Source of the DNA: Squalus acanthias | Lineage: Eukaryota | Length of the DNA: 64,000 nt | Assembly: GCA_030390025.1 (NCBI GenBank) | Contig: CM059452.1 | Span: 10,292,001 to 10,356,000, forward strand | Reading direction: 5' to 3' | Shown here: positions 10,408 to 60,139 of the stretch, one piece after another | Layout of the letters: every line of letters starts with the position of its first letter | Numbering within the stretch: position 1 is the first letter of the stretch | Notes under the pieces: generated by a model | Databases searched by the model: none | What the model saw: only the letters and a program-made list of their open reading frames with translations | Told to the model about the DNA's origin: nothing | Translations under genes and position numbers: made by a program

Positions 10408-10545
10408 ATAGAAACATAGAAACTAGGAGCAGGAGTAGGCCATTCGGCCCGTCGAGCCTGCTCCACCATTCAATACGATCATGGCTGATCATCCAAATCC
10501 AGTACCCTGTCCCTGCCCCCTCACACAGAATCCCCATCGAGCCTA
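10408..10545 (-). mobile_element. Short CR1/SINE 3'-end insertion disrupting the GIY-YIG domain of Penelope A
   Basis: Reverse-complement (TTTCTATG)n tail at 10408. The Penelope reading frame resumes at ~10546 (SLPVGEHF). The insertion is absent from copy B. Confidence 0.8.
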
Positions 10546-11051: not shown

Positions 11052-11090
11052 CACCTGAGGAAGGGGCCACGTAAGCTCCGAAAGCTTGTG
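11052..11090 (+). ncRNA. Minimal type I hammerhead ribozyme of Penelope A
   Basis: CAC-CUGAGGA-A-GGGGC(cacguaa)GCUCC-GAAA-GC-UU-GUG. Core boxes are present, helix II and helix I pair, and helix III is the palindrome AAGCUU. Confidence 0.8.
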
Positions 11091-11949
11091 TTTTCAAATA
11101 AAACTGTTGGACTATAACCTGGTGTTGTGCGACTTCTCATTTTGGTCTTATATAAGCAGAGAAAGTACCTAGTGCAGTAATAACTGAGACAGGCCCAGTG
11201 TAATATAAACAGAGACAATGTGTGGTGTTGTAATAAAATGACATGGTTGGCGTCAATTAAACTGCGACAGGGCCCAGTGTTATCTTTGTGGAATGCACTT
11301 GTTAACATTAAGAATGAAGTGCTTTGCACACACACACGAACACAAACACACACACATATATATAATGCTTTGTATGTGCTCTTTTCAGTGTTCCTGTTAA
11401 CCAGATGATAGTTGTGCACTTGGTATCATTAGGAACCTGTGGCAACCCATCAGGCGTTGCTGTGAGATCAGGGTCCCAGGCTCTGTCTAGCACAATAAGT
11501 GGGTCATGCGAAAGCTAAATAGAAAATTCTATGTAATATGAAGAGAGACAGGGTATGGTGCAGTATTAAAAAAGACAGGGTCGAGTGTAATATAAGCAGA
11601 GACATGGTCTAGTGCAGTAATACCGGAGACAGGGCCCAGTGTAATATAAACAGAGACATGGTCTAGAGTAGTAATAACTGAGACAGGGCCTTGTGTAATA
11701 TAAAAAGAGACATGATCTAGTGCAGTAATAACTGAGACAGGGCCGAGTGTGCTATTAACACAGACATAGTCCAGTACTGTGTAACTAAGACATAGTCTCG
11801 TGTAATTTAAACAGGGGCATGGTCTAGTGCAGTAATAAATTATATATGGCCTAATGCAATATAAACAGAGGCATTTTCTATTGCAGTAATAAATGAGATG
11901 GGGCCTAGTATAATATTGACAGAGACAGTGTCTAGTGTAGTAATAATTG

Positions 11950-18565: not shown

Positions 18566-18568
18566 TGC

Positions 18569-30730: not shown

Positions 30731-30734
30731 CTTA

Positions 30735-30831
30735 TATGCGGAGATGCCGGTGTTGGACTGGGGTGGACAAAAGTGAGAAGTCGCACAACACCAGGTTATA
30801 GTCCAACAGTTTTATTTGAAATCACAAGCTT
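30735..30831 (-). mobile_element. Extreme 3' terminus of a Penelope-like element (left flank of the Tx1 array)
   Basis: Reverse complement AAGCTTGTGATTTCAAATAAAACTGTTGGACTATAACCTGGTGTTGTGCGACTTCTCA matches 11082-11139. Confidence 0.88.
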
Positions 30832-31796
30832 GTGGTGAGCAGCAGCAGCAGAGTGGTGGTCTCTGTGTCCAGGAAGAGGAGAAGGAGACCAGATAGCAGA
30901 CCACCACCAACAACCAACAACCACTACTGAGGTGCCTGGAGAGAGAGGACAGGAGAGGAGAAAGAAAAGGCCAAGGCCATTAACACCAGAGGAGAGGCCT
31001 TTCCACACTGCCTCCTCAATTGGCCTCCATTTTAGGAGAGGGAGCGAGGGGAGAAAACCATCACAACAAATATCATCTGTTTGGAAGGAGGAAGAAAGAT
31101 AGAAAGAACATCAGCTACAGGTGGGTGTTATTTCTGGGGCACTCTCCCAGAGACTTTGTTTTGTAGGTGGGGGGAGGAAAGAAGAAAAGAAGAGGGCCGG
31201 AACATCTAAGGGGTGTGTGTGTGTGTGTGTGTGTGGCTTTTGTAAAAGCTAGGCCGCACACACCATATTAAACACCCCTTTCCCATTGCCTGACCTGGGA
31301 CAGCTGGAGCTGCCTAGGTGAAGTCCCCAATTAACTTAATATTATTGGGCATCGTTAAGACCTGGTGCAGGACTGAGCCTGGGCATCTCCAGCTATCCCA
31401 GGTGAAGACATCTTCTCCCCCCACCAGAAGACCACCACCAAAGACTTGTATTACATCGGAGAGTGCACCCCCCTGCCAACACCCACCCACCCACCATCCT
31501 GAGTGGCGACCCTGCCCTTGCGGCTTCCCTCCTTCCACCCCCTCTCTCTCTCTCTTTGTCTCTTGTCTCTCTCTGCCTCTCTCTCTAAGAGGCACCTCAT
31601 CTATTTTTAATTAAGTACCCATTGAGCAGAGGGGAGAAGGCCCCTCTCCCAATTCAATCAACTAAAGGGAGAGGTGTGCCTTCAATTTAAGAGCTCCCTC
31701 TGCTCAGGGGAAAACTAAAACAAAAAAAAACCGAGGCCATTAACACCTTCAGGCCTGTGACTTGGGGTGAGTGTAGCCCTTAAAGAACCCTCCATT

Positions 31797-33954
31797 ATGG
31801 CGACCACATCTTCGCCGGTGGCGGGGGCAGCGAGGACGTACGTGAGCGTGGCAGCCGCGGCCACGGCCGCAGCCACGAGTCCTCCTGTTACCCCGTCACC
31901 TTTTACCCTCCTTACGAGGAAGAATGGGGTCAAGAGCTACACTCACCCCAACATGACTATAGAGGCGTGTGTAAAAGCCATGGCTGGGGTTGTCGGCCCT
32001 TCAGCCATCGTCGCCGCCTCTAAAATGTACGGCAAGGCTGTGTTCTTCCTGGGGTCGGAGCGGGCGGTGTCCCTGGCCATCGAGAAGGGGCTCACCGTGG
32101 GCGGGACCTTCCTGCCGGTGGACCCCCTTGAGGCCACCGCGCAAAGGATTGTGGTTTCCAACGTCCCGCCCTTTGTTCCGGGTGAGCTCCTCCTCCCCCA
32201 CCTACGTCAACTGGGGGAGGTGAGGTCGGGGATCACACCCATCCCGCTCGGCTTCCGGGAAGCCAGCCTTCGGCACGTCTTCTCCTTCCGGCGCCAGCTT
32301 TTCGTCCGGCTGGCGCGGGAGGAGGACGCGGACGGCGCGTTCACGGTGCTCCACGGGGGGACCGCCCACCGCGTCTTCTGGACCTCGGACGGCGTGCGGT
32401 GCTACGCCTGTAAGGAGGTGGGGCACGTCCGCAAAAACTGCCCCGCCTCCAAGGCCGCCACGACACCTGGCGCGGCCGGGGTTGGCGCCGCCGCCCCCCC
32501 TCCCCCTGATACTGTCCGCGCGTCGACGGCGACGGATGCGCGGTCGAAATCGGAGGCCAACACCACCACGGCCTCCGGCGGGGAGGAGGGAGAGCGTCCG
32601 GGGGGAAGGAAGGCGCGTAGGAAAACTAAACACCTAAGGGCGGATCCCCTCGCGGAGGAAACATCGGAATTGACCGAACTCACGCCCGAGTATATCGCGG
32701 AGTTGGTCGGGACGCATGAGACTGGGGGGGTCCTCGTGCCCGGGCCCGTGACCGTGACCGCAACCGCCGAGGAGGCTAAATCAAGACCTGCGGCCGGGCT
32801 CGGGCCCGAGGGGCCCAAGAAACCCAGTCGTCGGAAGGGGGCAGAGAGGGAGGCCCCAGCAGACATGGAGGCCTCCCCCTCTCCGGGCCCCAACTTGTTA
32901 AAAAGAAAGCTCCGCCCCCAGCAGGAAGACTGCGAGGAGGAAGGTCCCTCCGCAAAAGGGGGGCAGTCGCCCGCCGCGGGTGCTGCGCCCCACCCCACCA
33001 CCGTCATCGTCGCGCGCGAGCGGCGGGGGTCGTCTGTCCCTCGGGAGGGTGAGACAGCCGAGTCTGTCCGACCTGTGCCTCCCGGGGATGGGGAAGAGAC
33101 CCTGCCCGTGGGGGGGGGCACGGAACAACCCGCGGAGGGAAATGTAGAACCTGAACCGTTGCTCCTCGCCGGGTCGGGCGTCCTGGGGACTGGGGCGGGC
33201 GAGGCCAAAGAGGCTGAAGCCGAGCCCGCCTTTTATAACCCAGACATCTCCCAGGGACTGCTCGACCTGGTGGAGGACTTTAACAATCCCCAGCCCGCTG
33301 GGTCGGAGGTTGGTGGCGGGGAGACAGAAAGACCCCTGACTCCGTCTCTGTTGTTGGCGCCGGACGTGCTGGAGGAATTTGGGATTATTTTCTCCCCGGT
33401 TTCTCCGGTCGCCCCGGCGCCTGAGGCGGGGGGGGGGCCCCGAACCGCCGCCGCCGCCTCCCGGCCCGGCGCCCCTGAAGGAGCCCAGGGTGGACTCCTC
33501 TGCCACCGATCCTGGGGGTGGGATCGTGACGGAGGCGGGGCCGGCCGGTGCGGCCGAGCCGTTCGCTGCACCCTGTGTGACGGACGGGTTGGCCGCCGGT
33601 GACGACCTCCCGGAGGAGGACGGGGACTCGGTGTTGGGCAACGAGGACGATTTGGAGTCCATCGGCAGCGAGGCGATGGACGCCCTCGTGCCCTTCACCG
33701 ACTCTCCCCTCATCCCCGTAGGGGAACTCCGGGATTTTATGGCCATGAGCCAGGGTCGTCACAAGAAGATCCGGCTGGCCCTCGACAAGTGGTCGGAGCT
33801 GACGCTGCTCGTCGTGTCCGTCCGCGCCGCCGTTAAAATCATGGGCGCGGACAAGGACGTTGGCCGGCTCGAGCTGCGTCGGCTCAAGAGCTTCCACACT
33901 GGGCTGCTGAGGGAGTGGCGGTCGTCAGTGACCGCGCTCCCTCCCCTCCGTTAG
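31797..33954 (+). CDS. Tx1 ORF1, copy 1 (zinc-knuckle protein), frameshift in the poly-G at ~33430
   Basis: CYACKEVGHVRKNC knuckle. The C-terminus is in another frame compared with copy 2. Confidence 0.85.
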
Positions 33955-33979
33955 GTAGAGGTTGCACTATGCTTCTGAG

Positions 33980-36900
33980 ATGAAGATAACCATAGCCAGC
34001 CTCAACATCAACGGCAGCAGGGAGGCGCGCCGTAGATTCAATAACTTCTCGGTCCTTCGGGACGGGAAATATGCGGTGTGCTTCCTGCAAGAAACCCACA
34101 CCGTTCCGGGAGACGAGGCTACGTGGCTCCTGGAGTGGCAAGGAGGGGTCAGCATGAGTCACCTCTCTAACAATTCCTGCGGGGTGGCTGTCTTGCTGGC
34201 CCCGCATTTTCAGCCGGAGATCTTGAGGGTCAAGGAGCACGTGCCCCAGGTCACTGTTCGCCTGGGAGGCGTGCCGCTCCATTTATTGAACGTGTACGCC
34301 CCCCGGACCGGTGCGCAGCAAGTGCGCTTCTTCGGAGAAGTGTCCGCTCTTCTGGGCTCCATCGACGTGGGCGAGTGCGTCATCCTCGGGGGGGATTTCA
34401 ATTGTACCCTCGAGGCGCGGGACCGGTCGGGTCCCCCGCGAAGCCCGGCGGCGATGGAGAAGTTGCGGGACCTGGTCGGGTCCTTCGACTTGGTGGACGT
34501 CTGGCGAAATCTCCATCCCGACTCCAGCGCCTTCACGAGCGTGAGGTCTGGAGGAGGAAGGTCCAGAATCGACCGCCTTTACATTTCCCGGGCGTACGTC
34601 TCCTGCGTTCCGGCGGCTTCCATGCGGCCGGTGCCGTGCACGGACCACCACCTGGTGTGGGCGGAGCTCGCTCCGCTGCGCGCGCGGGGGGGGTCCGCGT
34701 ACTGGCATTTTAACAACCTGCTGCTGGAGGACGCGCGGTTCCGGGATTCGTTTCGCCGGTTCTGGGCCGACTGGAGAAGGAAGCGGGGAGGCTTCCCCTC
34801 CTTGAGGCTATGGTGGGACGTGGGCAAGGCTCACGTCCGCGTCTTCTGTCAGGAGTACGCGAAGGGGTCGACCAAGAGGCGGGAGGCCCGGGTCGGGCGA
34901 TTGGAGAAAGAAGTGCTCGACCTGGAGTCCCGTCTCGGTCAAGTCGTCGAGGACCCGGCCCTGCGGAAGGTGTACGAAGAGAAGAAGGGCGCGCTGAAGG
35001 ACCTGCAGCTGGTCGGGTCCCGAGGCGCGTACGTGAGGTCGCGGATCCAGTTCCTGCGGGACCTGGACCGCGGCTCCCCCTTCTTCTACTCGCTGGAAAA
35101 AAGACGGGGGGTCCGTAAGCAGCTCTTGGGGCTGCTGGCCGACGACGGATCTCTGGTCTCGGATCCGGAGGGCATCAGCGCGGAGGCCCGGGCCTATTAC
35201 GGGGCTCTGTTCTCTTCGGATCCGTCCAGCGAGGATGCGCGCAGAGTTTTGTGGGAGGACCTGCCGAAGGTCGGCCCGGAGGGCGCCGAGAATTTAGAAG
35301 CTCCGCTAAGCCTGGCGGAGCTGACCGGCGCCCTGCGCCAGCTCTCGAGGGGCAAGTCCCCGGGGCTGGACGGGCTGACCGTGGAGTTCCACAGGGCGTT
35401 CTGGGACGTCTTGGGGGACGACTACGCGCGGGTCCTGGGGGAAAGTCTGGCGACCGGGGAGATGCCCCTCTCTTGGCGCAGGGCGGTCATCGTCCTGCTG
35501 CCCAAGAAGGGCGATCTCCGCCTACTTAAGAACTGGCGCCCGGTCTCCCTCCTCAGCACGGACTACAAAATTTTCGCCAGGGCTATGTCTGCTCGCCTTG
35601 GCACCGTGCTGGCCCGCATGATCCACCCCGACCAGTCCTACACGGTCCCGGGCCGGAGTATCCACGATAACATCCATCTGGTCCGGGACCTGGTCCACCA
35701 TTCCCAGAGGGCTGGTCTGTCGGTCGCCTTCCTTTCCCTGGATCAGGAGAAGGCGTTCGACAGGGTGGATCACGAGTATCTTTTCGGGACTCTGCGCGCA
35801 TTCGGGTTCGGGACGCATTTCGTCGCCCGGATCCGACTTCTGTACGCCGCCGCGGAGTGTCTGATTAAAGTTAACGGGTCTTTGACGGCGCCCCTTCGCT
35901 TCGGGAGGGGGGTGCGTCAGGGATGCCCCATGTCCGGTCAGTTATACGCCGTTTGCGTGGAGCCTTTCCTGCGCCTCTTGCGGAAGAGGTTGACGGGACT
36001 GGCTCTGCAAGGGCCGGGCGTGGAGGTGGTCCTCTCGGCTTACACCGATGACGTGCTCCTCGCGGTCACGGATCCCGTCGACTTGCGGAGGATGCGAGAA
36101 TGCCAGCAGATTTACTCGGACGCATCCTCCGCCAAGATCAACTGGGAGAAATGTTCTGGACTCCTGGTGGGCCCATGGCGGGTGGACTCCCTGCCGGAGG
36201 AGTTCGGGCCTTTCGCCTGGAGCACCACGCACCTCCTCTACCTGGGAGTCTACCTCAGCCCGGCCGAGGACGCCTGGCCGGCGAACTGGCAAGAGCTGGA
36301 GGCCAAAGTCACCGCTCGCCTAGGACGCTGGACAGGACTGCTCCGAGTGTTGTCCTACAGGGGTCGAGCGCTGGTCATAAACCAGCTGGTGGCCGCCATG
36401 TTGTGGTACCGGTTGATCACTTTGATCCCTCCCCCTGCGTTTGTCGCCAAGATGCAGAAGAAGCTCGTCGACTTCTTCTGGGACAAAAGGAAGCACTGGG
36501 TCTCTGCCGCGGTTTTGAGTCTCCCGCTTAGGGAGGGCGGTCAGGCGCTGGTGTGCCTTCGCACCCAGGCGGCGACTTTCCGTCTTCAGACGCTGCAGAG
36601 ATACCTGTACGTGGAGAATCCTCCTAGGTGGCGTGCGCTGGCGACGTATTTCTTCCGCCAGCTGCACGGCCTCAATTACGACACGCAGCTCCTGTTTGTG
36701 AGAGTGGGTGGCACGCGTGCCAGCCTGCGGGAGCTGCCTGTCTTCTACCAGGAACTGCTATGGGTTTGGAACAGCGTCGCCTCCGAGCGCAGTTCTCCCC
36801 CGTCAGGAGCGGCGGCCGTCCTTCGGGAGCCGCTGTTCAGGAATCCGCACCTCCACGACCGCGGGTTCGGCTGGCTGGCGGAGGGCAGGGCTGTGCCCGG

Positions 36901-37867
36901 TAAGGTGACCAGAGTCGGGGACCTGCTCGATGGCGGAGGAGCGGGCTGGATGGCGCCGGAGGAGTTGGCGAGGCGCATGTCCTGGGTCAACGTCCGGCTC
37001 GCGGTCAAAGCCATCGAGTCGCTAAAAGTGGCACTGGGCCCCGTCTCCACTAGGTGTGTCGAGGAGGCTCAAGCACGTGGGGCGATCCCGTCCGAACTGA
37101 CCCCCGTTCGGACGGAATTCCTTATCGGCGCCCGGCCCCGAATCCTCCCTCGGGAGCCGCCGCCTCACCACTTGAGCCTTCTCGGAGAAATGCCCTCCGT
37201 GCCCTTTCAATCCGCACGGAGGCGTTTCCTGTACGGGCTGCTCCTGCACACTCTCCACTTTGCCATCTTCGTCTGCCGTCCGGACACGCCTTGGCGTACC
37301 ATCCTGCCGTCCGGCGGAGGCGAAGGTCCCCATTGGAAGGCTCTCTACGCGGGAGTCTTCCCTTGTTCTATTGGGGACTTGGCCTGGAGGGTGTTGCACG
37401 GAGCAGTCCCGTGCAATAGGATTTTAAGTAGGTTTACGGACTCCCAGGCTGCTTGCCATTTTTGCGGCCTGGAGGAGTCCGTTTATCACATTTATGTTGA
37501 ATGTGAGAGGTTGCAGCCCCTCTTTCATTATTTGAAGGGGCTGCTCCTCAATTTCTGGTTGCACTTCAGCCCCACGCTCCTGATCTACGGTCACCCGGTG
37601 CGGAGGGGAGCGGGTAGGTCGGAGGACCTCCTCGTAGGACTGCTCCTGGGCCTGGCCAAGAAAGCCATTAATTGGTCCAGGCAGCGGGCGGTCGAGGGGG
37701 TCGTTCGGCCCGATTGCCTGCCTCTCTTCCGCGGCCATGTTCGCGCCCGGGTGGCCCTGGAGATGGAGCACGCGGTGTCCGCCGGCACGCTTGAGTTTTT
37801 CCGCGACCGGTGGGCGCCGCGGGGACTGGAGTGCATCGTCACCCCGCACTTTCAAATTTTAATTTGA
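33980..37867 (+). CDS. Tx1 ORF2, copy 1 (open; 12-bp in-frame deletion in the endonuclease; YTDD)
   Basis: SLNING, LQETH, GGDFN, TDHH; KSPGLDG, DQEKAFD, GVRQGCPMS, YTDD; CHFC..H..C. Confidence 0.92.
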   Translation: MKITIASLNINGSREARRRFNNFSVLRDGKYAVCFLQETHTVPGDEATWLLEWQGGVSMSHLSNNSCGVAVLLAPHFQPEILRVKEHVPQVTVRLGGVPLHLLNVYAPRTGAQQVRFFGEVSALLGSIDVGECVILGGDFNCTLEARDRSGPPRSPAAMEKLRDLVGSFDLVDVWRNLHPDSSAFTSVRSGGGRSRIDRLYISRAYVSCVPAASMRPVPCTDHHLVWAELAPLRARGGSAYWHFNNLLLEDARFRDSFRRFWADWRRKRGGFPSLRLWWDVGKAHVRVFCQEYAKGSTKRREARVGRLEKEVLDLESRLGQVVEDPALRKVYEEKKGALKDLQLVGSRGAYVRSRIQFLRDLDRGSPFFYSLEKRRGVRKQLLGLLADDGSLVSDPEGISAEARAYYGALFSSDPSSEDARRVLWEDLPKVGPEGAENLEAPLSLAELTGALRQLSRGKSPGLDGLTVEFHRAFWDVLGDDYARVLGESLATGEMPLSWRRAVIVLLPKKGDLRLLKNWRPVSLLSTDYKIFARAMSARLGTVLARMIHPDQSYTVPGRSIHDNIHLVRDLVHHSQRAGLSVAFLSLDQEKAFDRVDHEYLFGTLRAFGFGTHFVARIRLLYAAAECLIKVNGSLTAPLRFGRGVRQGCPMSGQLYAVCVEPFLRLLRKRLTGLALQGPGVEVVLSAYTDDVLLAVTDPVDLRRMRECQQIYSDASSAKINWEKCSGLLVGPWRVDSLPEEFGPFAWSTTHLLYLGVYLSPAEDAWPANWQELEAKVTARLGRWTGLLRVLSYRGRALVINQLVAAMLWYRLITLIPPPAFVAKMQKKLVDFFWDKRKHWVSAAVLSLPLREGGQALVCLRTQAATFRLQTLQRYLYVENPPRWRALATYFFRQLHGLNYDTQLLFVRVGGTRASLRELPVFYQELLWVWNSVASERSSPPSGAAAVLREPLFRNPHLHDRGFGWLAEGRAVPGKVTRVGDLLDGGGAGWMAPEELARRMSWVNVRLAVKAIESLKVALGPVSTRCVEEAQARGAIPSELTPVRTEFLIGARPRILPREPPPHHLSLLGEMPSVPFQSARRRFLYGLLLHTLHFAIFVCRPDTPWRTILPSGGGEGPHWKALYAGVFPCSIGDLAWRVLHGAVPCNRILSRFTDSQAACHFCGLEESVYHIYVECERLQPLFHYLKGLLLNFWLHFSPTLLIYGHPVRRGAGRSEDLLVGLLLGLAKKAINWSRQRAVEGVVRPDCLPLFRGHVRARVALEMEHAVSAGTLEFFRDRWAPRGLECIVTPHFQILI

Positions 37868-38977
37868 TTTATTAAGTTTCATTTCAAGTTTTAATTGATT
37901 TACAGTAAATTTGCGTTCTGTCAAACCAAAAAGATGAACACCAGGTTATAGTCCAACAGTTTTATTTGAAATCACAAGCTTTCGGAGCTGCTGACTGAGG
38001 AGCAGCAGCAGCAGAGTGGTGGTCTCTGTGAGCAGGAAGAGGAGAAGGAGAAGGAGAAGGAGACCAGACAGCAGACCACCACCAACAACCAACAACCACA
38101 ACAACTGAGGTGCCTGGAGAGAGAGGACAGGAGAGGAGAGGGAGAAGAAAGGAAAGCCAAGGCCATCAACACCAGAGGGGAGGCCTTTCCACACTGCCTC
38201 CTCAATTGGCCTCCATTTTAGGAGAGGGAGAGAGGGGAGAAAACAACACAACAACCATCAACTGTTTGGAAGGAGGGAGGAAGGAAAGAACATCAGCTAC
38301 AGGTGGGTGTGATTCTGGTGCACTCTCCCAGAGACTTTGTTTTGTAGGTGGGGGGAGGAAAGAAGAAAAGAAGAGGGCCGAAACATCCAAGGGGTGTGTG
38401 TGTGTGTGTGTGGCTTTTGTAAGAACTAGGCCGCACACACCATATTAAACACCCCTTTCCCATTGCCTGACCTGGGACAGACAGCTGGAGCTGCCTAGGT
38501 GAAGTCCCCAATTAATTTAATCTTATTGGGCATCGTTAAGACCTGGTGCAGGACTGAGCCTGGGCATCTCCAGCTATCCCAGGTGAAGACATCTTCTCCC
38601 CCCACCAGAAGACCACCACCAAAGACTTTTATTACATCGGAGAGTGCACCCCCCTGCCAACACCCACCCACCCACCATCCTGAGTGGCGACCCTGCCCTT
38701 GCGGCTTCCCTCCTTCCCACCCCCCCTCTCTCTCTCTCTTTGTCTCTTGTCTCTCTCTGCCTCTCTCTCTAAGAGGCACCTCAATCTATTTTAATTAAGT
38801 ACCCATTGAGCAGAGGGCAGAAGGCCCCTCTCCTAATTAATTCATAAAAAGGGAGAGGTGTGCCTTCAATTTAAGAGCTCCCTCTGCTCAGGGGAAAAAA
38901 AACAAAAAAAACCGAGGCCATTAACACCTTCAGGCCTGTGACTTGGGGTGAGTGTAGCCCTTAAAGAACCCTCCATT

Positions 38978-41135
38978 ATGGCGACCACATCTTCGCCGGT
39001 GGCGGGGGCAGCGAGGACGTACGCGAGCGTGGCAGCCGCGGCCACGGCCTGCAGCCACGAGTCCTCCTGTTACCCCGTCACCTTTTACCCTCCTTACGAG
39101 GAAGAATGGGGTCAAGAGCTACACTCACCCCAACATGACTATAGAGGCGTGTGTAAAAGCCATGGCTGGGGTTGTCGGCCCTTCAGCCATCGTCGCCGCC
39201 TCTAAAATGTACGGCAAGGCTGTGTTCTTCCTGGGGTCGGAGCGGGCGGTGTCCCTGGCCATCGAGAAGGGGCTCACCGTGGGCGGGACCTTCCTGCCGG
39301 TGGACCCCCTTGAGGCCACCGCGCAAAGGATTGTGGTTTCCAACGTCCCGCCCTTTGTTCCGGGTGAGCTCCTCCTCCCCCACCTACGTCAACTGGGGGA
39401 GGTGAGGTCGGGGATCACACCCATCCCGCTCGGCTTCCGGGAAGCCAGCCTTCGGCACGTCTTCTCCTTCCGGCGCCAGCTTTTCGTCCGGCTGGCGCGG
39501 GAGGAGGACGCGGATGGCGCGTTCACGGTGCTCCACGGGGGGACCGCCCACCGCGTCTTCTGGACCTCGGACGGCGTGCGGTGCTACGCCTGTAAGGAGG
39601 TGGGGCACGTCCGCAAAAACTGCCCCGCCTCCAAGGCCGCCAAGACACCTGGCGCGGCCAGGGTTGGCGCCGCCGCCCCCCCTCCCCCTGATACTGTCCG
39701 CGCGTCGACGGCGACGGATGCGCGGTCGAAATCGGAGGCCAACGCCACCACGGCCTCCGGCGGGGAGGAGGGAGAGCGTCCGGGGGGAAGGAAGGCGCGT
39801 AGGAAAAATAAACATCTAAGGGCGGATCCCCTCGCGGAGGAAACATCGGAGTTGACCGAACTCACGCCCGAGTATATCGCGGAGTTGGTCGGGACGCATG
39901 AGACTGGGGGGGTCCTCGTGCCCGGGCCCGTGACCGTGACCGCAACTGCTGAGGCAGCTGAATCAAGACCTGCGGCCGGGCTCGGGCCCGAGGGGCCCAA
40001 GAAACCCAGTCGTCGGAAGGGGGCAGAGAGGGAGGCCCCAGCAGACATGGAGGCCTCCCCCTCTCCGGGCCCCAACTTGTTAAAAAGAAAGCTCCGCCCC
40101 CAGCAGGAGGACTGCGAGGAGGAAGGTCCCTCCGCAAAAGGGGGGCAGTCGCCCGCCGCGGGTGCTGCGCCCCACCCCACCACCGTCATCGTCGCGCGCG
40201 ATCGGCAGGGGTCGTCTGTCCCTCGGGAGGGTGAGACAGCCGAGTCTGTCCGACCTGTGCCTCCCGGGGATGGGGAAGAGACCCTGCCCGTGGGGGGGGG
40301 CGCGGAACAACCCGCGGAGGGAAATGTAGTTTCGGAACCGTTGCTCCTCGCCGGGTCGGGCGTCCTGGGGACTGGGGCGGGCGAGGCCAAAGAGGCTGAA
40401 GCCGAGCCCGCCTTTTATAACCCAGATATCTCCCAGGGACTGCTCGACCTGGTGGAGGAGTGTAGCAATCCCCAGCCCGCTGGGTCGGAGGTTGGTGGCG
40501 GGGAGACGGAAAGCCCCCTGACTCCGTCTCTGTTGTTGGCGCCGGACGTGCTGGAGGAATTTGGGATTATTTTCTCCCCGGTTTCTCCGGTCGCCCCGGC
40601 GCCTGAGGCGGGGGGGGGCCCCGAACCGCCGCCGCCGCCTCCCGGCCCGGCGCCCCTGAAGGAGCCCAGGGTGGACTCCTCTGCCACCGATCCTGGGGGT
40701 GGGATCGTGACGGAGGCGGGGCCGGCCGGTGCGGCCGAGCCGTTCGCTGCACCCTGTGTGACGGACGGGTTGGCCGCCGGTGACGACCTCCCGGAGGAGG
40801 ACGGGGACTCGGTGGTGGGCATCGAGGACGATTTGGAGTCCATCGGCAGCGAGGTGATGGACGCCCTCGTGCCCTTCACCGACTCTCCCCTCATCCCCGT
40901 AGGGGAACTCCGGGATTTTATGGCCGTGAGCCAGGGTCGTCACAAGAAGATCCGGCTGGCCCTCGACAAGTGGTCGGAGCTGGCGCTGCTCGTCGTGTCC
41001 GTCCGCGCCGCCGTTAAAATCATGGGCGCGGACAAGGACGTTGGCCGGCTCGAGCTGCGTCGGCTCAAGAGTTTCCACACTGGGCTGCTGAGGGAGTGGC
41101 GGTCGTCAGTGACCGCGCTCCCTCCCCTCCGTTAG
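38978..41135 (+). CDS. Tx1 ORF1, copy 2 (1-bp insertion at ~39050; open from 39135)
   Basis: GGCCTGCAGCC versus GGCCGCAGCC in the other copies; 666-aa downstream ORF. Confidence 0.85.
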
Positions 41136-41160
41136 GTAGAGGTTGCACTATGCTTCTGAG

Positions 41161-44100
41161 ATGAAGATAACCATAGCCAGCCTCAACATCAACGGCAGCA
41201 GGGAGGCGCGCCGTAGATTCAATAACTTCTCGGTCCTTCGGGACGGGAAATATGCGGTGTGCTTCCTGCAAGAAACCCACACCGTTCCGGGAGACGAGGC
41301 CACGTGGCTCCTGGAGTGGCAAGGAGGGGTCAGCATGAGTCACCTCTCCAACAATTCCTGCGGGGTGGCTGTCTTGCTGGCCCCGCATTTTCAGCCGGAG
41401 ATCTTGAGGGTCAAGGAGCACGTGCCGGGCCGCTTGCTCCAGGTCACTGTTCGCCTGGGAGGCGTGCCGCTCCATTTAGTGAACGTGTACGCCCCCCGGA
41501 CCGGTGCGCAGCAAGTGCGCTTCTTCGGAGAAGTGTCCGCTCTTCTGGGCTCCATCGACGTGGGCGAGTGCGTCATCCTCGGGGGGGATTTCAATTGTAC
41601 CCTCGAGGCGCGGGACCGGTCGGGTCCCCCGCGAAGCCCGGCGGCGATGGAGAAGTTGCGGGACCTGGTCGGGTCCTTCGACTTGGTGGACGTCTGGCGA
41701 AATCTCCATCCCGACTCCAGCGCCTTCACGAGCGTGAGGTCTGGAGGAGGAAGGTCCAGAATCGACCGCCTTTACATTTCCCGGGCGTACGTCTCCTGCG
41801 TTCCGGCGGCTTCCATGCGGCCGGTGCCGTGCACGGACCACCACCTGGTGTGGGCGGAGCTCGCTCCGCTGCGCGCGCGGGGGGGGTCCGCGTACTGGCA
41901 TTTTAACAACCTGCTGCTGGAGGACGCGCGGTTCCGGGATTCGTTTCGCCGGTTCTGGGCCGACTGGAGAAGGAAGCGGGGAGGCTTCCCCTCCTTGAGG
42001 CTATGGTGGGACGTGGGCAAGGCTCACGTCCGCGTCTTCTGTCAGGAGTACGCGAAGGGGTCGACCAAGAGGCGGGAGGCCCGGGTCGGGCGATTGGAGA
42101 AAGAAGTGCTCGACCTGGAGTCCCGTCTCGGTCAAGTCGTCGAGGACCCGGCCCTGCGGAAGGTGTACGAAGAGAAGAAGGGCGCGCTGAAGGACCTGCA
42201 GCTGGTCGGGTCCCGAGGCGCGTACGTGAGGTCGCGGATCCAGTTCCTGCGGGACCTGGACCGCGGCTCCCCCTTCTTCTACTCGCTGGAAAAAAGACGG
42301 GGGGTCCGTAAGCAGCTCTTGGGGCTGCTGGCCGACGACGGATCTCTGGTCTCGGATCCGGAGGGCATCAGCGCGGAGGCCCGGGCCTATTACGGGGCTC
42401 TGTTCTCTTCGGATCCGTCCAGCGAGGATGCGCGCAGAGTTTTGTGGGAGGACCTGCCGAAGGTCGGCCCGGAGGGCGCCGAGAATTTAGAAGCTCCGCT
42501 AAGCCTGGCGGAGCTGACCGGCGCCCTGCGCCAGCTCTCGAGGGGCAAGTCCCCGGGGCTGGACGGGCTGACCGTGGAGTTCCACAGGGCGTTCTGGGAC
42601 GTCTTGGGGGACGACTACGCGCGGGTCCTGGGGGAAAGTCTGGCGACCGGGGAGATGCCCCTCTCTTGGCGCAGGGCGGTCATCGTCCTGCTGCCCAAGA
42701 AGGGCGATCTCCGCCTACTTAAGAACTGGCGCCCGGTCTCCCTCCTCAGCACGGACTACAAAATTTTCGCCAGGGCTATGTCTGCTCGCCTTGGCACCGT
42801 GCTGGCCCGCATGATCCACCCCGACCAGTCCTACACGGTCCCGGGCCGGAGTATCCACGATAACATCCATCTGGTCCGGGACCTGGTCCACCATTCCCAG
42901 AGGGCTGGTCTGTCGGTCGCCTTCCTTTCCCTGGATCAGGAGAAGGCGTTCGACAGGGTGGATCACGAGTATCTTTTCGGGACTCTGCGCGCATTCGGGT
43001 TCGGGACGCATTTCGTCGCCCGGATCCGACTTCTGTACGCCGCCGCGGAGTGTCTGATTAAAGTTAACGGGTCTTTGACGGCGCCCCTTCGCTTCGGGAG
43101 GGGGGTGCGTCAGGGATGCCCCATGTCCGGTCAGTTATACGCCGTTTGCGTGGAGCCTTTCCTGCGCCTCTTGCGGAAGAGGTTGACGGGACTGGCTCTG
43201 CAAGGGCCGGGCGTGGAGGTGGTCCTCTCGGCTTACGCCGATGACGTGCTCCTCGCGGTCACGGATCCCGTCGACTTGCGGAGGATGCGAGAATGCCAGC
43301 AGATTTACTCGGACGCATCCTCCGCCAAGATCAACTGGGAGAAATGTTCTGGACTCCTGGTGGGCCCATGGCGGGTGGACTCCCTGCCGGAGGAGTTCGG
43401 GCCTTTCGCCTGGAGCACCACGCACCTCCTCTACCTGGGAGTCTACCTCAGCCCGGCCGAGGACGCCTGGCCGGCGAACTGGCAAGAGCTGGAGGCCAAA
43501 GTCACCGCTCGCCTAGGGCGCTGGACAGGACTGCTCCGAGTGTTGTCCTACAGGGGTCGAGCGCTGGTCATAAACCAGCTGGTGGCCGCCATGTTGTGGT
43601 ACCGGTTGGTCACTTTGATCCCTCCCCCTGCGTTTGTCGCCAAGATGCAGAAGAAGCTCGTCGACTTCTTCTGGGACAAAAGGAAGCACTGGGTCTCTGC
43701 CGCGGTTTTGAGTCTCCCGCTTAGGGAGGGCGGTCAGGCGCTGGTGTGCCTTCGCACCCAGGCGGCGACTTTCCGTCTTCAGACGCTGCAGAGATACCTG
43801 TACGTGGAGAATCCTCCTAGGTGGCGTGCGCTGGCGACGTATTTCTTCCGCCAGCTGCACGGCCTCAATTACGACACGCAGCTCCTGTTTGTGAGAGTGG
43901 GTGGCACGCGTGCCAGCCTGCGGGAGCTGCCTGTCTTCTACCAGGAACTGCTATGGGTTTGGAACAGCGTCGCCTCCGAGCGCAGTTCTCCCCCGTCAGG
44001 AGCGGCGGCCGTCCTTCGGGAGCCGCTGTTCAGGAATCCGCACCTCCACGACCGCGGGTTCGGCTGGCTGGCGGAGGGCAGGGCTGTGCCCGGTAAGGTG

Positions 44101-45060
44101 ACCAGAGTCGGGGACCTGCTCGATGGCGGAGGAGCGGGCTGGATGGCGCCGGAGGAGTTGGCGAGGCGCATGTCTTGGGTCAACGTCCGGCTCGCGGTCA
44201 AAGCCATCGAGTCGCTAAAAGTGGCACTGGGCCCCGTCTCCACTAGGTGTGTCGAGGAGGCTCAAGCACGTGGGGCGATCCCGTCCGAACTGACCCCCGT
44301 TCGGACGGAATTCCTTATCGGCGCCCGGCCCCGAATCCTCCCTCGGGAGCCGCCGCCTCACCACTTGAGCCTTCTCGGAGAAATGCCCTCCGTGCCCTTT
44401 CAATCCGCACGGAGGCGTTTCCTGTACGGGCTGCTCCTGCACACTCTCCACTTTGCCATCTTCGTCTGCCGTCCGGACACGCCTTGGCGTACCATCCTGC
44501 CGTCCGGCGGAGGCGAAGGTCCCCATTGGAAGGCTCTCTACGCGGGAGTCTTCCCTTGTTCTATTGGGGACTTGGCCTGGAGGGTGTTGCACGGAGCAGT
44601 CCCGTGCAATAGGATTTTAAGTAGGTTTACGGACTCCCAGGCTGCTTGCCATTTCTGCGGCCTGGAGGAGTCCGTCTATCACATTTATATTGAGTGTGAG
44701 AGGTTGCAGCCCCTCTTTCATTATTTGAAGGGGCTGCTCCTCAATTTCTGGTTGCACTTCAGCCCCACGCTCCTGATCTACGGTCACCCGGTGCGGAGGG
44801 GAGCGGGTAGGTCGGAGGACCTCCTCGTAGGACTGCTCCTGGGCCTGGCCAAGAAAGCCATTAATTGGTCCAGGCAGCGGGCGGTCGAGGGGGTCGTTCG
44901 GCCCGATTGCCTGCCTCTCTTCCGCGGCCATGTTCGCGCCCGGGTGGCCCTGGAGATGGAGCACGCGGTGTCCGCCGGCACGCTTGAGTTTTTCCGCGAC
45001 CGGTGGGCGCCGCGGGGGCTGGAGTGCATCGTCACCCCGGACTTCCAAATTTTGATTTGA
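41161..45060 (+). CDS. Tx1 ORF2, copy 2, intact APE endonuclease-reverse transcriptase (1299 aa)
   Basis: All APE and RT motifs present, including YADD and the C-terminal CCHC. Confidence 0.95.
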   Translation: MKITIASLNINGSREARRRFNNFSVLRDGKYAVCFLQETHTVPGDEATWLLEWQGGVSMSHLSNNSCGVAVLLAPHFQPEILRVKEHVPGRLLQVTVRLGGVPLHLVNVYAPRTGAQQVRFFGEVSALLGSIDVGECVILGGDFNCTLEARDRSGPPRSPAAMEKLRDLVGSFDLVDVWRNLHPDSSAFTSVRSGGGRSRIDRLYISRAYVSCVPAASMRPVPCTDHHLVWAELAPLRARGGSAYWHFNNLLLEDARFRDSFRRFWADWRRKRGGFPSLRLWWDVGKAHVRVFCQEYAKGSTKRREARVGRLEKEVLDLESRLGQVVEDPALRKVYEEKKGALKDLQLVGSRGAYVRSRIQFLRDLDRGSPFFYSLEKRRGVRKQLLGLLADDGSLVSDPEGISAEARAYYGALFSSDPSSEDARRVLWEDLPKVGPEGAENLEAPLSLAELTGALRQLSRGKSPGLDGLTVEFHRAFWDVLGDDYARVLGESLATGEMPLSWRRAVIVLLPKKGDLRLLKNWRPVSLLSTDYKIFARAMSARLGTVLARMIHPDQSYTVPGRSIHDNIHLVRDLVHHSQRAGLSVAFLSLDQEKAFDRVDHEYLFGTLRAFGFGTHFVARIRLLYAAAECLIKVNGSLTAPLRFGRGVRQGCPMSGQLYAVCVEPFLRLLRKRLTGLALQGPGVEVVLSAYADDVLLAVTDPVDLRRMRECQQIYSDASSAKINWEKCSGLLVGPWRVDSLPEEFGPFAWSTTHLLYLGVYLSPAEDAWPANWQELEAKVTARLGRWTGLLRVLSYRGRALVINQLVAAMLWYRLVTLIPPPAFVAKMQKKLVDFFWDKRKHWVSAAVLSLPLREGGQALVCLRTQAATFRLQTLQRYLYVENPPRWRALATYFFRQLHGLNYDTQLLFVRVGGTRASLRELPVFYQELLWVWNSVASERSSPPSGAAAVLREPLFRNPHLHDRGFGWLAEGRAVPGKVTRVGDLLDGGGAGWMAPEELARRMSWVNVRLAVKAIESLKVALGPVSTRCVEEAQARGAIPSELTPVRTEFLIGARPRILPREPPPHHLSLLGEMPSVPFQSARRRFLYGLLLHTLHFAIFVCRPDTPWRTILPSGGGEGPHWKALYAGVFPCSIGDLAWRVLHGAVPCNRILSRFTDSQAACHFCGLEESVYHIYIECERLQPLFHYLKGLLLNFWLHFSPTLLIYGHPVRRGAGRSEDLLVGLLLGLAKKAINWSRQRAVEGVVRPDCLPLFRGHVRARVALEMEHAVSAGTLEFFRDRWAPRGLECIVTPDFQILI

Positions 45061-46124
45061 TTTGTTAAGTTTCATTTAAAGTTTTAATTGATTTACAGTA
45101 AATTTTGATTTGTCCAACCAAAAAGAGCAACACCAGGTTATAGCCTCAGCAGCCAGGAGAAGGAGAGTGAGGAGCAGCAGCAGCAGAGTGGTGGTCTCTG
45201 TGACCAGGAAGAGGAGAAGGAGAAGGAGACAGACAGCAGGCCACCACCAACAACCAACCACAACAACTGAGGTGCCTGGAGAGAGAGGACAGGAGAGGAG
45301 AGAGGGGAGAAAGGAAGGCCAAGGCCATCAAAACCAGAGGAGAGGCCTTTCCACACTGCCTCCTCAATTGGCCTCCATTTTAGGAGAGGGAGAGAGGGGA
45401 GAAAACAACACCAACAAACATCAACTGTTTGGAAGGAGGGAGGAAGGAAAGAACAGCTACAGGTGGGTGTGATTCTGGTGCACTCTCCCAGAGACTTTGT
45501 TTTGTAGGTGGGGGGAGGAAAGAAGAAAAGATTAGGGCCGGAACATCCAAGGGGTGTGTGTGTGTGGCTTCTGTAAAAGCTAGGCCGCACACACCATATT
45601 AAACACCCCTTTCCCATTGCCTGACCTGGGACAGCTGGAGCTGCCTAGGTGAAGTCCCCAATTAATTTAATCTTATTGGGCATCGTTAAGACCTGGTGCA
45701 GGACTGAGCCTGGGCATCTCCAGCTATCCCAGTTGAAGACATCTTCTCCCCCCACCAGAAGACCACCACCAAAGACTTTTATTACATCGGAGAGTGCACC
45801 CCCCTGCCAACACCCACCCACCCACCATCCTGAGTGGCGACCCTGCCCTTGCGGCTTCCCTCCTTCCCACCCCTCTCTCTCTCTCTTTGTCTCTTGTCTC
45901 TCTCTGCCTCTCTCTCTAAGAGGCACCTCATTATCTTTTAATTAAGTACCTATTGAGCAGAGGGGAGAAGGCCCCTCTCCTAATTAATTCATATAAAGGG
46001 AGAGGTGTGCCTTCAATTTAAGAGCTCCCTCTGCTCAGGGGAAAACAGAAACAAAAAACCGAGGCCATTAACACCTTCAGGCCTGTGACATGGGGTGAGT
46101 GTAGCCCTTAAAGACCCGTCCATT

Positions 46125-48274
46125 ATGGCGAGTACATCTTCGTCGGTGGCGGGGGCAGCGAGGACGTATGCGAGCGTGGCAGCCGCGGCCGCAGCCACGA
46201 GTCCTCCTGTTACCCCGTCACCTTTTACCCTCCTTACGAGGAAGAATGGGGTCAAGAGCTACACTCACCCCAACATGAATATAGAGGCGTGTGTTAAAGC
46301 CATGGCTGGGGTTGTCGGCCCTTCAGCCATCGTCGCCGCCTCTAAAATGTACGGCAAGGCTGTGTTCTTCCTGGGGTCGGAGCGGGCGGTGTCCCTGGCC
46401 ATCGAGAAGGGGCTCACCGTGGGCGGGACCTTCCTGCCGGTGGACCCCCTTGAGGCCACCGCGCAAAGGATTGTGGTTTCCAACGTCCCGCCCTTTGTTC
46501 CGGGTGAGCTCCTCCTCCCCCACCTACGTCAACTGGGGGAGGTGAGGTCGGGGATCACACCCATCCCGCTCGGCTTCCGGGAAGCCAGCCTTCGGCACGT
46601 CTTCTCCTTCCGGCGCCAGCTCTTCGTCCGGCTGGCGCGGGAGGAGGACGCGGATGGCGCGTTCACGGTGCTCCACGGGGGGACCGCCCACCGCGTCTTC
46701 TGGACCTCGGACGGCGTGCGGTGCTACGCCTGTAAGGAGGTGGGGCACGTCCGCAAAAACTGCCCCGCCTCCAAGGCCGCCACGACACCTGGCGCGGCCA
46801 GGGCTGGCGCCGCCGCCCCCCCTCCCCCTGATACTGTCCGCGCGTCGACGGCGACGGATGCGCGGTCGAAATCGGAGGCCAACGCCATCACGGCCTCCGG
46901 CGGGGGGGAGGGAGAGCGTCCGGGGGGAAGGAAGGCGCGTAGAAAAAATAAACACCTAAGGGCGGATCCCCTCGTGGAGGAAACATCCGAGTTGACCGAA
47001 CTCACGCCCGAGTACATTGCGGAGTTGATCGGGACGCCTGAGACTGGGGGGGTCCTCGTGCCCGGGCCCGTGACCGTGACCGCAACTGCTGAGGCAGCTG
47101 AATCAAGACCTGCGGCCGGGCTCGGGCCCGAGGGGCCCAAGAAACCCAGTCGTCGGAAGGGGGCAGAGAGGGAGGCCCCAGCAGACATGGAGGCCTCCCC
47201 CTCTCCGGGCCCCAACTTGTTAAAAAGAAAGCTCCGCCCCCAGGAGGAGGACTGCGAGGAGGAAGGTCCCTCCGCAGAAGGGGGGGAGTCGCCCGCCGCG
47301 GGTGCTGCGCCCCACCCCACCACCGTCATCGTCGCGCGTGATCGGCAGGGGTCGTCTGTCCCTCGGGAGGGTGAGACAGCCGAGTCTGTCCGACCTGTGC
47401 CTCCCAGGGATGGGGAAGAGACCCTGCCCGTGGGGGGGGGCGCGGAACAACCCGCGGATATCAATAATAAAAAACCTGAACCGTTGCTCCTCGCCGGGTC
47501 GGGCGTCCTGGGGACTGGGGCGGGCGAGGCCAAAGAGGCTGAAGCCGAGCCCGCCTTTTACAATCCAGATATCTCCCAGGGACTGCTCGACCTGGTGGAG
47601 GAGTATAACAATCCCCAGTCCGCTGGGTCGGAGGTTGGTGGCGGGGAGACAGAAAGCCCCCTGACTCCGACTCTGATGTTGGCGCCGGACGTACTGAAGG
47701 AATTTGAGATTATTTTCTCCCCGGTTTCTCCGGTCGCTCTGGCGCCTGAGGCGGGGGGGGCCCCGAACCGCCGCCGCCTCCCGGCCCGGCGCCCCTGAAG
47801 GAGCCCAGGGTGGACTCCTCTGCCACCGATCCTGGGGGTGGGATCGTGACGGAGGCGGGGCCGGCCGGTGCGGCCGAGCCGTTCGCTGCACCCCGTGCGA
47901 CAGACGGGTCGGCCGCCGGTGACGACCTCCCGGAGGAGGACGGGGACTCGGTGGTGGGCATCGAGGACGATTTGGAGTCCATCGGCAGCGAGGTGATGGA
48001 CGCCCTCATGCCCTTCACCGACTCTCCCCTCATCCCCGTTGGGGAACTCCGGGATTTTATGGCCATGAGCCAGGGTCGTCACAAGAAGATCCGGCTGGCC
48101 CTCGACAAGTGGTCGGAGCTGGCGCTGCTCGTCGTGTCCGTCCGCGCCGCCGTTAAAATCATGGGCGCGGACAAGGACGTTGGCCGGCTCGAGCTGCGTC
48201 GGCTCAAGAGTTTCCACACTGGGCTGCTGAGGGAGTGGCGGTCGTCAGTGACCGCGCTCCCTCCCCTCCGTTAG
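46125..48274 (+). CDS. Tx1 ORF1, copy 3 (frameshift at ~47760)
   Basis: Split ORFs 46095-47798 and 47810-48274. Confidence 0.85.
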
Positions 48275-48299
48275 GTAGAGGTTGCACTATGCTTCTGAG

Positions 48300-51200: not shown

Positions 51201-52200
51201 CGGCTGGCTGGCGGAGGGCAGGGCTGTGCCCGGTAAGGTGACCAGAGTCGGGGACCTGCTCGATGGCGGAGGAGCGGGCTGGATGGCGCCGGAGGAGTTG
51301 GCGAGGCGCATGTCCTGGGTCAACGTCCGGCTCGCGGTCAAAGCCATCGAGTCGCTAAAAGTGGCACTGGGCCCCGTCTCCACTAGGTGTGTCGAGGAGG
51401 CTCAAGCACGTGGGGCGATCCCGTCCGAACTGACCCCCGTTCGGACGGAATTCCTTATCGGCGCCCGGCCCCGAATCCTCCCTCGGAAGCCGCCGCCTCA
51501 CCACTTGAGCCTTCTCGGAGAAATGCCCTCCGTGCCCTTTCAATCCGCACGGAGGCGTTTCCTGTACGGGCTGCTCCTGCACACTCTCCACTTTGCCATC
51601 TTCGTCTGCCGTCCGGACACGCCTTGGCGTACCATCCTGCCGTCCGGCGGAGGCAAAGGTCCCCATTGGAAGGCTCTCTACGCGGGAGTCTTCCCTTGTT
51701 CTATTGGGGACTTGGCCTGGAGGGTGTTGCACGGAGCAGTCCCGTGCAATAGGATTTTAAGTAGGTTTACGGACTCCCAGGCTGCTTGCCATTTCTGCGG
51801 CCTGGAGGAGTCCGTCTATCACATTTATGTTGAATGTGAGAGGTTGCAGCCCCTCTTTCATTATTTGAAGGGGCTGCTCCTCAATTTCTGGTTGCACTTC
51901 AGCCCCACGCTCCTGATCTACGGTCACCCGGTGCGGAGGGGAGTGGGTAGGTCGGAGGACCTCCTCGTAGGACTGCTCCTGGGCCTGGCCAAGAAAGCCA
52001 TTAATTGGTCCAGGCAGCGGGCGGTCGAGGGGGTCGTTCGGCCCGATTGCCTGCCTCTCTTCCGCGGCCATGTTCGCGCCCGGGTGGCCCTGGAGATGGA
52101 GCACGCGGTGTCCGCTGGCACGCTTGAGTTTTTCCGCGACCGGTGGGCGCCGCGGGGACTGGAGTGCATCGTCACCCCGGACTTTCAAATTTTAATTTGA
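48300..52200 (+). CDS. Tx1 ORF2, copy 3 (frameshift at ~49991)
   Basis: GGAGCAATCC versus GGAGTATCC in the other copies; split ORFs 48282-50201 and 50098-52200. Confidence 0.88.
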
Positions 52201-52269
52201 TTTATTAAGTTTCATTTAAAGTTTTAATTGATTTACAGTAAATTTGGGTTCTGTCAAACCAAAAAGATG

Positions 52270-60125: not shown

Positions 60126-60139
60126 CACAGTGTGTGTTT

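What the first reader, a model, noticed from the sequence alone, without database searches (positions are those of the whole stretch)
37937..37988. 5' junctions carry target sequence of a different Penelope subtype than the host
Seen: target-like sequence before each copy is ~45 bp (30787-30831), ~52 bp (37937-37988) and ~15 bp (45129-45143). The two long pieces read CAGTTTTATTTGAAATCACAAGCTT (extending to TCGGAGC at 37988), like Penelope A. The host downstream reads CAGATTTATTTAATTTTACAAGCTTTCGAAGC (type B). Simple target-site duplications should equal the local downstream sequence, and these do not. Inference: either the Tx1 RNA starts in donor-locus Penelope sequence and uses it for homology-guided 5' joining (analogous to R2 using co-transcribed 28S sequence), or the array is a recombinant or misassembly of arrays from two Penelope loci.
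Basis: partly seen in the sequence, partly recalled or inferred. Interest (0 to 1): 0.7.

Follow-up and report, generated by a model that had tools for sequence, protein, structure and literature searches.

The report
Retrotransposon junction carries foreign target DNA
In a shark genome, three copies of one jumping gene sit stacked inside the tail of another, and one joint carries about 38 letters of landing-site DNA from a different copy of that host, most likely brought in on the jumper's RNA, as is already known for insect elements.

Summary
The sequences and coordinates are right, but only one junction is certainly anomalous. Three young, distinct Tx1-clade LINEs lie head-to-tail at one site in the 3' end of a shark Penelope-like element (type B), antisense and next to its hammerhead motif. 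The 15-bp spacer is a perfect duplication (15/15). The 45-bp piece equals the next spacer (45/45), so it may be an ordinary long duplication. The middle spacer (37937-37989) has 38 nt that the local host cannot supply: 7/53 differences from host B and 1/53 from Penelope A, far beyond post-insertion drift. Flanks look collinear (13 of 1483 null trials as good), which disfavours a simple two-locus chimera, but copy 2 is mosaic. Best reading (0.5): donor-locus target sequence carried on Tx1 RNA, either as a co-transcribed 5' flank or as a 3' read-through tail reached by template jump, then annealed to the 15-nt overhang. Close precedents are earwig R2, melanogaster-type R1 and Tx1-mobilised SINEU-2B. 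Gene conversion, repair templating and misassembly remain open, because no other loci could be fetched. A Tx1 family targeting Penelope ends was not found in 10 literature searches.

The parts
30735..30786 (-). 3'-terminal piece of the host Penelope-like element, upstream of the Tx1 site (left boundary approximate; A/B subtype not determinable)
   Evidence: matches Penelope A end 11127-11147; homology of the older flanking repeat stops at 30734
30787..30831 (+). J0: 45-nt A-type target sequence at the 5' end of copy 1; either a long local duplication of J1 or a second import
   Evidence: 45/45 to J1, 1/45 differences from Penelope A, 5/45 from host B
30832..37936 (+). Tx1-clade LINE copy 1 (about 1-kb 5' UTR, ORF1, ORF2 33959-37867 with a 12-nt in-frame deletion); no poly(A) tail
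37937..37951 (+). J1 nt 1-15: target core shared by A and B (the usual duplication length at this site)
37952..37989 (+). J1 nt 16-53: the non-local, A-like target sequence (antisense of part of a Penelope hammerhead: helix I 3' strand, helix III, core GAAA, helix II 3' strand)
   Evidence: 7 differences from host B, 1 from Penelope A; hammerhead positions
37990..37995 (+). short linker between target-like sequence and element; part of a 7-nt inverted copy of the element's CAG-rich start (possible snap-back, weak)
   Evidence: 7-nt inverted match reached by 4% of 3000 random linkers
37996..45128 (+). Tx1-clade LINE copy 2; ORF1 (zinc knuckle; frame change near its start), intact ORF2 41161-45060 (APE endonuclease, RT, zf-RVT); 3' end of a different variant from copies 1 and 3
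   Evidence: Pfam; 50% identity over 1299 aa to Xenopus Tx1 149-kDa protein
45129..45143 (+). J2: 15-nt spacer, perfect duplication of 52270-52284
45144..52269 (+). Tx1-clade LINE copy 3, with a unique 23-nt head and a 1-nt insertion in ORF2
52270..53621 (-). host Penelope-like element type B, 5'-truncated in RT; minimal hammerhead motif at 52306-52342
   Evidence: 94.6% to Penelope A over 871 nt of coding sequence, divergent 3' UTR
9251..11143 (+). Penelope A, an uninserted copy of the other subtype (reference only; not itself the donor); hammerhead motif 11052-11089
   Evidence: best protein hits 85-93% identical in sharks, e.g. Heptranchias perlo

Best explanation
A target-specific Tx1-clade LINE nicks the bottom strand at one fixed site about 50 nt from the 3' end of shark Penelope-like elements and normally leaves a 15-nt top-strand overhang. 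Repeated insertion at the regenerated site built the three-copy array. For copy 2 (and possibly copy 1), the cDNA ended in 45-53 nt of target sequence from an A-type donor locus that travelled on Tx1 RNA. The RNA carried it either (a) as a co-transcribed 5' flank of a donor with a long junction, or (b) as the 3' read-through tail of a transcript, which the reverse transcriptase reached by end-to-end template jump. That cDNA end annealed to the 15-nt overhang and primed the second strand, fixing A-type sequence in a B-type host. Shown: the anatomy, the fixed 3' junction, the 15-bp duplication, the non-local 38 nt and distinct source copies. Inferred: the RNA carrier, the annealing step and the order of insertion. 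Split: (a) about 0.3, (b) about 0.2.
For: All three 3' junctions abut the same target base. J2 and the host give a perfect 15-bp duplication, and J1 continues seamlessly from that 15-mer into A-type sequence. The copies came from separate source elements: 98.0-98.6% identity, three different 5' junctions, and ORF2 private changes enriched for synonymous ones (15 of 27, neutral fraction 0.25, p=0.0008). They are young (0.18-0.31% private ORF2 changes). A and B are real subfamilies: they have different 3' UTRs and hammerhead helix I covaries, CAC/GUG versus UAC/GUA. Copy 3 has no poly(A) tail and no AATAAA/ATTAAA in its 3' UTR or in the next 630 nt of host, so read-through is plausible. The flanks appear collinear (13 of 1483 null trials reach the combined score). 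Precedents: earwig R2; R1 ISR junctions, R1 tandem arrays separated by the duplication and R1 3' read-through (PMC2718515); SINEU-2B 42-nt extension from its Mariner target (PMC4494074).
Against: There is one certain event at one locus, and no second locus, read or transcript could be examined (searches found nothing). Homology-guided joining gives uniform junctions in most R2s, whereas here 3 of 3 junctions differ, which counts against (a). No promoter or 5' ribozyme was found to explain an RNA start in the target: Rfam gave 1 chance-level hit, and a strict HDV descriptor gave 0 hits but had no positive control. Copy 2 is mosaic near its 3' end (max chi-square 27.9, 0 of 1000 permutations), as DNA recombination would also produce. 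The collinearity signal is short and is not significant by unanchored local alignment.
Confidence: 0.5

Rival explanations
1. DNA-level gene conversion or double crossover. Long duplications (45-53 bp) are genuine products of this element in A-type hosts, and a tract covering J1 (and J0) was copied in from a Tx1-containing A-type locus, using Tx1 and Penelope-end homology, while the outer flanks stayed in place.
For: J0 equals J1 at 45/45, so long true duplications may occur. Private sites are unevenly spread among regions (chi-square p=1e-4), and copy 2 switches variant near its 3' end. Seven kb of 98% homology is available. Collinear flanks are compatible with this model.
Against: It needs unusually long duplications plus a later conversion in a very young array. 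Mosaicism can equally arise in source lineages. The J1 and J2 spacers differ, so the array did not grow by simple unequal crossing-over.
Confidence: 0.2
2. Templated repair at integration. The 15-nt top-strand overhang invaded another Penelope copy (A-type DNA), or primed on A-type Penelope RNA, to which it is complementary. It was extended 30-38 nt and then end-joined to the cDNA.
For: Variable extension lengths (45, 53) and short odd linkers. The overhang is complementary to Penelope sense RNA. Uncleaved PLE RNA is reported as the dominant substrate in vitro (PMC11167929 passage).
Against: Both extensions pass the predicted hammerhead cut (between J1 nt 39 and 40), so cleaved RNA cannot be the template. 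I saw no precedent for this in the papers read.
Confidence: 0.12
3. Single crossover between two loci, or an assembly chimera joined inside near-identical ORF2 sequence: the left part comes from an A-type locus and the right part from a B-type locus.
For: Copies 1 and 2 show no substitution differences over alignment columns 3600-5100. Copy 2 is mosaic. The window has a 222-N gap, so it is a scaffolded assembly. The left Penelope end resembles A, and its B counterpart is unknown.
Against: The older repeat interrupted at 30734 appears to resume at about 53635 in register with two paralogs (25, 35 and 13 of 1483 null trials reach the single and combined scores). All three copies carry private variants along their length.
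Confidence: 0.1
4. J1 was a B-type duplication that mutated, or host B drifted from A after insertion.
For: None beyond overall similarity.
Against: p = 3e-8 to 9e-5 at realistic divergence. The differences match Penelope A state for state at 7 of the 8 A/B-diagnostic positions, and at position 36 J1 has the B base. The B changes preserve hammerhead pairing.
Confidence: 0.01

Closest known systems
Tx1 clade target-specific LINEs: Xenopus Tx1L (into Tx1D) and crocodilian Tx1-Mar / SINEU (into Mariner-N4_AMi) (PMC4494074)
   Same: APE-RT two-ORF element, 50% identical to Tx1L ORF2. It targets another transposable element, here antisense, as at one Tx1-Mar site. Tandem copies sandwich a duplication. 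SINEU-2B copies carry a 42-nt 5' extension resembling the target transposon of the master locus.
   Different: The target is a Penelope-like 3' end beside a hammerhead motif, not a DNA transposon, snRNA gene or microsatellite. The extension is sequence from downstream of the nick. It is found on the autonomous element.
R2 elements with 28S-containing 5' ends, especially earwig R2 (PMC3774820)
   Same: [quoted passage not shown] The authors explain this as a junction variant carried on RNA and propagated by cDNA-target annealing.
   Different: R2 has a restriction-like endonuclease and an HDV-like ribozyme, and its junctions are uniform within a species. Here the endonuclease is APE-type, no HDV-like fold was found (weak test) and 3 of 3 junctions differ.
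Drosophila R1 tandem arrays and insertion-site-rearrangement junctions (PMC2718515)
   Same: APE-type element; about 14-bp duplication; arrays formed by re-insertion into the 5' duplication; RNA-borne target sequence at 5' and 3' ends.
   Different: R1 carries target from upstream of the nick, and rDNA targets are homogeneous. Here polymorphic Penelope subtypes mark the donor, and the carried piece lies downstream of the nick.
Penelope-like elements with minimal hammerhead ribozymes (PMC4209133)
   Same: The host ends carry a minimal type I hammerhead with palindromic helix III; there are 2 hits in both strands of the window, both in Penelope ends.
   Different: The ribozyme lies antisense to the Tx1 and cannot process Tx1 RNA. 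It explains why the target is conserved.

Membership tests
Tx1 clade non-LTR retrotransposon | ORF2 with APE endonuclease, RT and C-terminal zinc-binding region; ORF1 with zinc knuckle | tested here: met
   PF03372, PF00078, PF13966 (below curated cut-off) and PF00098
Tx1 clade non-LTR retrotransposon | RT groups with Tx1L | tested here: inconclusive
   50% identity over 1299 aa to Xenopus Tx1 protein, the best named full-length hit; no tree was built
Tx1 clade non-LTR retrotransposon | target specificity (same site in more than 20% of independent insertions, criterion of PMC4494074) | tested here: inconclusive
   3 of 3 copies end at the same target base, but all are at one locus; no genome-wide data
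Penelope-like element (host) | PLE-type RT followed by GIY-YIG endonuclease | tested here: inconclusive
   RVT_1 match below cut-off for copy A; no Pfam hit for the C-terminal part of B; several homologs carry PF01541. Assignment to the Neptune clade is recalled, not tested
Penelope-like element (host) | minimal hammerhead motif in the terminal repeat | tested here: met
   own motif scan, 2 hits, both in Penelope ends, with covarying helix I; Rfam did not detect it; cleavage untested
R2-type homology-guided 5' joining | template RNA begins in target sequence | not testable with these tools
   needs 5' RACE, CAGE or long RNA reads
R2-type homology-guided 5' joining | HDV-like ribozyme releasing the RNA from a co-transcript | tested here: inconclusive
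   0 hits in three 5' regions and 0 in 30 shuffles with a strict descriptor and no positive control; none in Rfam
R2-type homology-guided 5' joining | uniform full-length 5' junctions among copies | tested here: not met
   3 of 3 junctions differ in target length (45, 53, 15) and linker; it may work like R2 joining but is not filed as such

The most novel reading that the evidence does not exclude
A shark Tx1 family specialises on the conserved hammerhead end of Penelope elements and builds its own 5' homology arm at each insertion. Having no poly(A) tail, its RNA reads through into the donor's downstream target, and the reverse transcriptase jumps from the RNA's 5' end onto that 3' tail, so the 'duplication' is written from RNA. 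Penelope subtype polymorphism would then act as a natural barcode for the source of every junction base, making second-strand priming of L1-group elements testable genome-wide.
Probability: 0.2. Interest if true: 0.7.

Novelty: new member of a known kind. Interest (0 to 1): 0.38.

Why it matters
How APE-type LINEs join their 5' end is still poorly resolved. In rDNA targets, donor and recipient sequences are nearly identical, so the origin of junction bases is mostly invisible. Here the target is polymorphic (Penelope subtypes A and B), so a genome-wide count of 5' versus 3' subtypes could directly separate RNA-carried, repair-templated and recombined junctions. The finding also points to an apparently undescribed target for Tx1 elements, the end of another retroelement. 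As it stands it is one junction, with close published precedents.

Tried and rejected
Search for other loci: two scans of genome contigs (Tx1 ORF2; Penelope C-terminus) found no relatives, as expected for a prokaryotic set. A protein search with the antisense frame across J1, meant to find shark gene models spanning other junctions, found none among 312 candidates. blastx of five junction regions against all 240 fetched proteins gave no hit. Folding of the three junction RNAs showed no unusual stability (z -0.39 to +1.74). The idea that extensions end at the hammerhead cut site was rejected: the cut lies after nt 39, and the extensions end at 45 and 53. Unanchored local alignment did not support flank continuity (1272 of 5076 null windows as good at 60 nt); only the anchored test did, and its start freedom of 16 positions was included in the null. 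The ORF1 synonymous counts used the wrong frame and were redone (22 of 64 synonymous). The snap-back reading of the linkers is weak (4%, 8.5% and 69% of random linkers match as well). The sigma-70 promoter scan is irrelevant to a eukaryote. Growth of the array by unequal crossing-over alone was rejected because spacers and 5' ends all differ. PMC85248 (Tx1L endonuclease) was not held, and the supplements of PMC4494074, with its Tx1 junction alignments, could not be read; they may bear on duplication lengths in Tx1 families.

Full report
Setting. The window is shark DNA by protein similarity: the Penelope-like ORF at 9251-10411 has best hits of 85-93% identity in Heptranchias, Scyliorhinus and other sharks. 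Self-comparison shows three head-to-tail copies of a 7.1-kb element at 30832-37936, about 37996-45128 and 45144-52269. ORF2 has an APE endonuclease, an RT and a weak zf-RVT match, and ORF1 has a zinc knuckle. ORF2 is 50% identical over 1299 aa to the Xenopus Tx1 149-kDa protein. The array interrupts the 3' end of a 5'-truncated Penelope-like element on the minus strand (type B, 52270-53621, with its last ~50 nt at 30735-30786). A second, uninserted copy (type A) lies at 9251-11143. A and B are 94.6% identical over 871 coding bases but have divergent 3' UTRs.

Observation. J1 differs from host B at 6 of 52 (7 of 53) positions and from Penelope A at 1 of 53. At 7 of the 8 positions that distinguish A from B it has the A state. 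On that basis J0 equals J1 at 45 of 45 and J2 equals the host at 15 of 15. Only J1 is unexplained: downstream of copy 2 there are just 15 target bases. In either order of insertion, nt 16-53 (37952-37989) cannot be copied from this locus as it stands. If copy 2 inserted last, J0 would be non-local too. Copy 2 has the fewest non-synonymous ORF2 changes (1, versus 4 and 7), which is too few to fix the order.

Not drift. Private substitutions in ORF2 are 8, 7 and 12 in 3885 columns (0.18-0.31%). Of these 27, 15 are synonymous against a neutral fraction of 0.25 (p=0.0008). Many differences therefore arose in active source lineages, and the insertions are very young. Six changes in 37 nt have probability 3e-8 at 0.5% divergence, 9e-5 at 2% and 0.014 even at 5.4%. 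A motif scan found exactly two minimal hammerheads on both strands of the window, one in each Penelope end, with helix I covarying between A and B. This matches the minimal hammerheads described for PLE terminal repeats (PMC4209133, first quarter read). A and B are thus functional subtypes, and the Tx1 site lies 39 nt from the predicted cut, in antisense orientation.

One locus or two? An older repeat, with paralogs near 13.0-13.3 kb and 26.8-27.3 kb, stops at 30734 where the Penelope end begins. Its continuation aligns in register from about 53635. With 16 free start positions, 25 and 35 of 1483 random windows reach the score for each paralog and 13 of 1483 reach the sum. The match is only about 40 nt and is not significant as an unanchored local alignment. 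This is suggestive evidence against a single-crossover or assembly chimera, and it says nothing against gene conversion. Against a clean history, private sites are clustered: copy 2 has 6 private changes in the 71-column 3' UTR, and the best breakpoint is reached by 0 of 1000 permutations. Copies 1 and 2 have no substitution differences over columns 3600-5100.

Mechanism. All three 3' junctions abut the same target base with no poly(A) tail, and there is no AATAAA/ATTAAA in the 3' UTR of copy 3 or the next 630 host bases. This fits a fixed bottom-strand nick and read-through transcripts (inference). A 15-nt overhang explains J2. For J1, the most economical source is Tx1 RNA from a donor in an A-type Penelope, either as a co-transcribed 5' flank or as a 3' tail reached by template jump. 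The copied end then anneals to the overhang, which explains the seamless join. I give these 0.3 and 0.2. The differing junctions and short odd linkers favour de novo events, while published precedent favours the inherited flank. No HDV-like ribozyme was found at the 5' ends, but the scan was strict and had no positive control, and Rfam gave only one chance-level hit in the window. The rivals are gene conversion from a Tx1-bearing A locus (0.2), repair templated on another Penelope copy or its RNA (0.12), a chimera or misassembly (0.1) and mutation (0.01). No further locus could be obtained to separate them.

Comparison with what is known. Kojima 2015 (PMC4494074; parts 1-4 of 5 read, supplements not available) describes Tx1 families targeting DNA transposons, LTR elements, snRNA genes and microsatellites. 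It also reports tandem SINEU-3 copies sandwiching a duplication, and a 42-nt 5' extension of SINEU-2B derived from the master locus's Mariner target. Eickbush 2013 (PMC3774820; passages) reports that all earwig R2 5' junctions carry 22 bp of downstream 28S sequence with three substitutions, attributed to RNA carriage and cDNA-target annealing. Stage and Eickbush 2009 (PMC2718515; passages and parts 4-5 of 8) describe R1 tandem arrays separated by the 14-bp duplication, RNA-borne target at 5' junctions and 3' read-through. Passages only were seen of PMC4640811, PMC6530143, PMC11167929, PMC1950540, PMC1919474, PMC11331408 and bioRxiv 10.64898/2026.07.22.740005. Ten searches listed no paper that, from title and abstract start, describes a Tx1 family targeting Penelope ends or shark Tx1 junctions. 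Repbase entries and subscription journals are outside this library, so absence is not established.

Verdict. This is a real but single anomaly: 38 nt of foreign-subtype target at one 5' junction of a young Tx1 array. It works like the RNA-carried junction sequence of R1, R2 and SINEU, but fails the uniform-junction test for R2-type joining and is not filed there. It is a new member of a known kind, with interest 0.38. Its value is that target polymorphism makes the origin of 5' junction bases testable across the genome.

Noticed in passing
window 9195-9250 and 11143-11155; 53622-53637 and 30731-30737: Both Penelope copies sit in TATA-rich sites and have a short tandem duplication of flanking DNA at their 5'-truncated end (11-nt unit at A, 8-nt unit at B). 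Copy A has an apparent ~12-bp target duplication with one mismatch.
   Followed up: partly
window 30832-52269: 5' UTR and ORF1 differ between copies several-fold more than ORF2 (private changes 0.4-3.0% versus 0.2-0.3%). Each ORF1 has a frame change, two of them at a G run that could be sequencing error.
   Followed up: partly
window 45144-45171: The unique head of copy 3 contains a 12-nt direct copy of sequence just inside the element (0.4% of random linkers match as well). It is either the true 5' end or a templated addition.
   Followed up: partly
window 30823-30834: J0 ends in a perfect 12-nt palindrome centred on the hammerhead helix III, so its last bases could be a fold-back.
   Followed up: partly
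window 10407-10545: A ~139-nt insertion interrupts the Penelope A ORF; part of it matches 27918-28004 (84%), probably a short retroelement 3' end.
   Followed up: no
window 17499-18694 and 18565-22360: Two adjoining minisatellite arrays with about 54-nt and about 60-nt periods.
   Followed up: no
window 59111-60148 (-) and 61639-62550 (+): Fragments of other LINEs: an APE endonuclease ORF and a GDSL-esterase-type ORF1, in partly inverted arrangement with 62691-63502.
   Followed up: no
window 1362-1583: Run of 222 N, an assembly gap.
   Followed up: no
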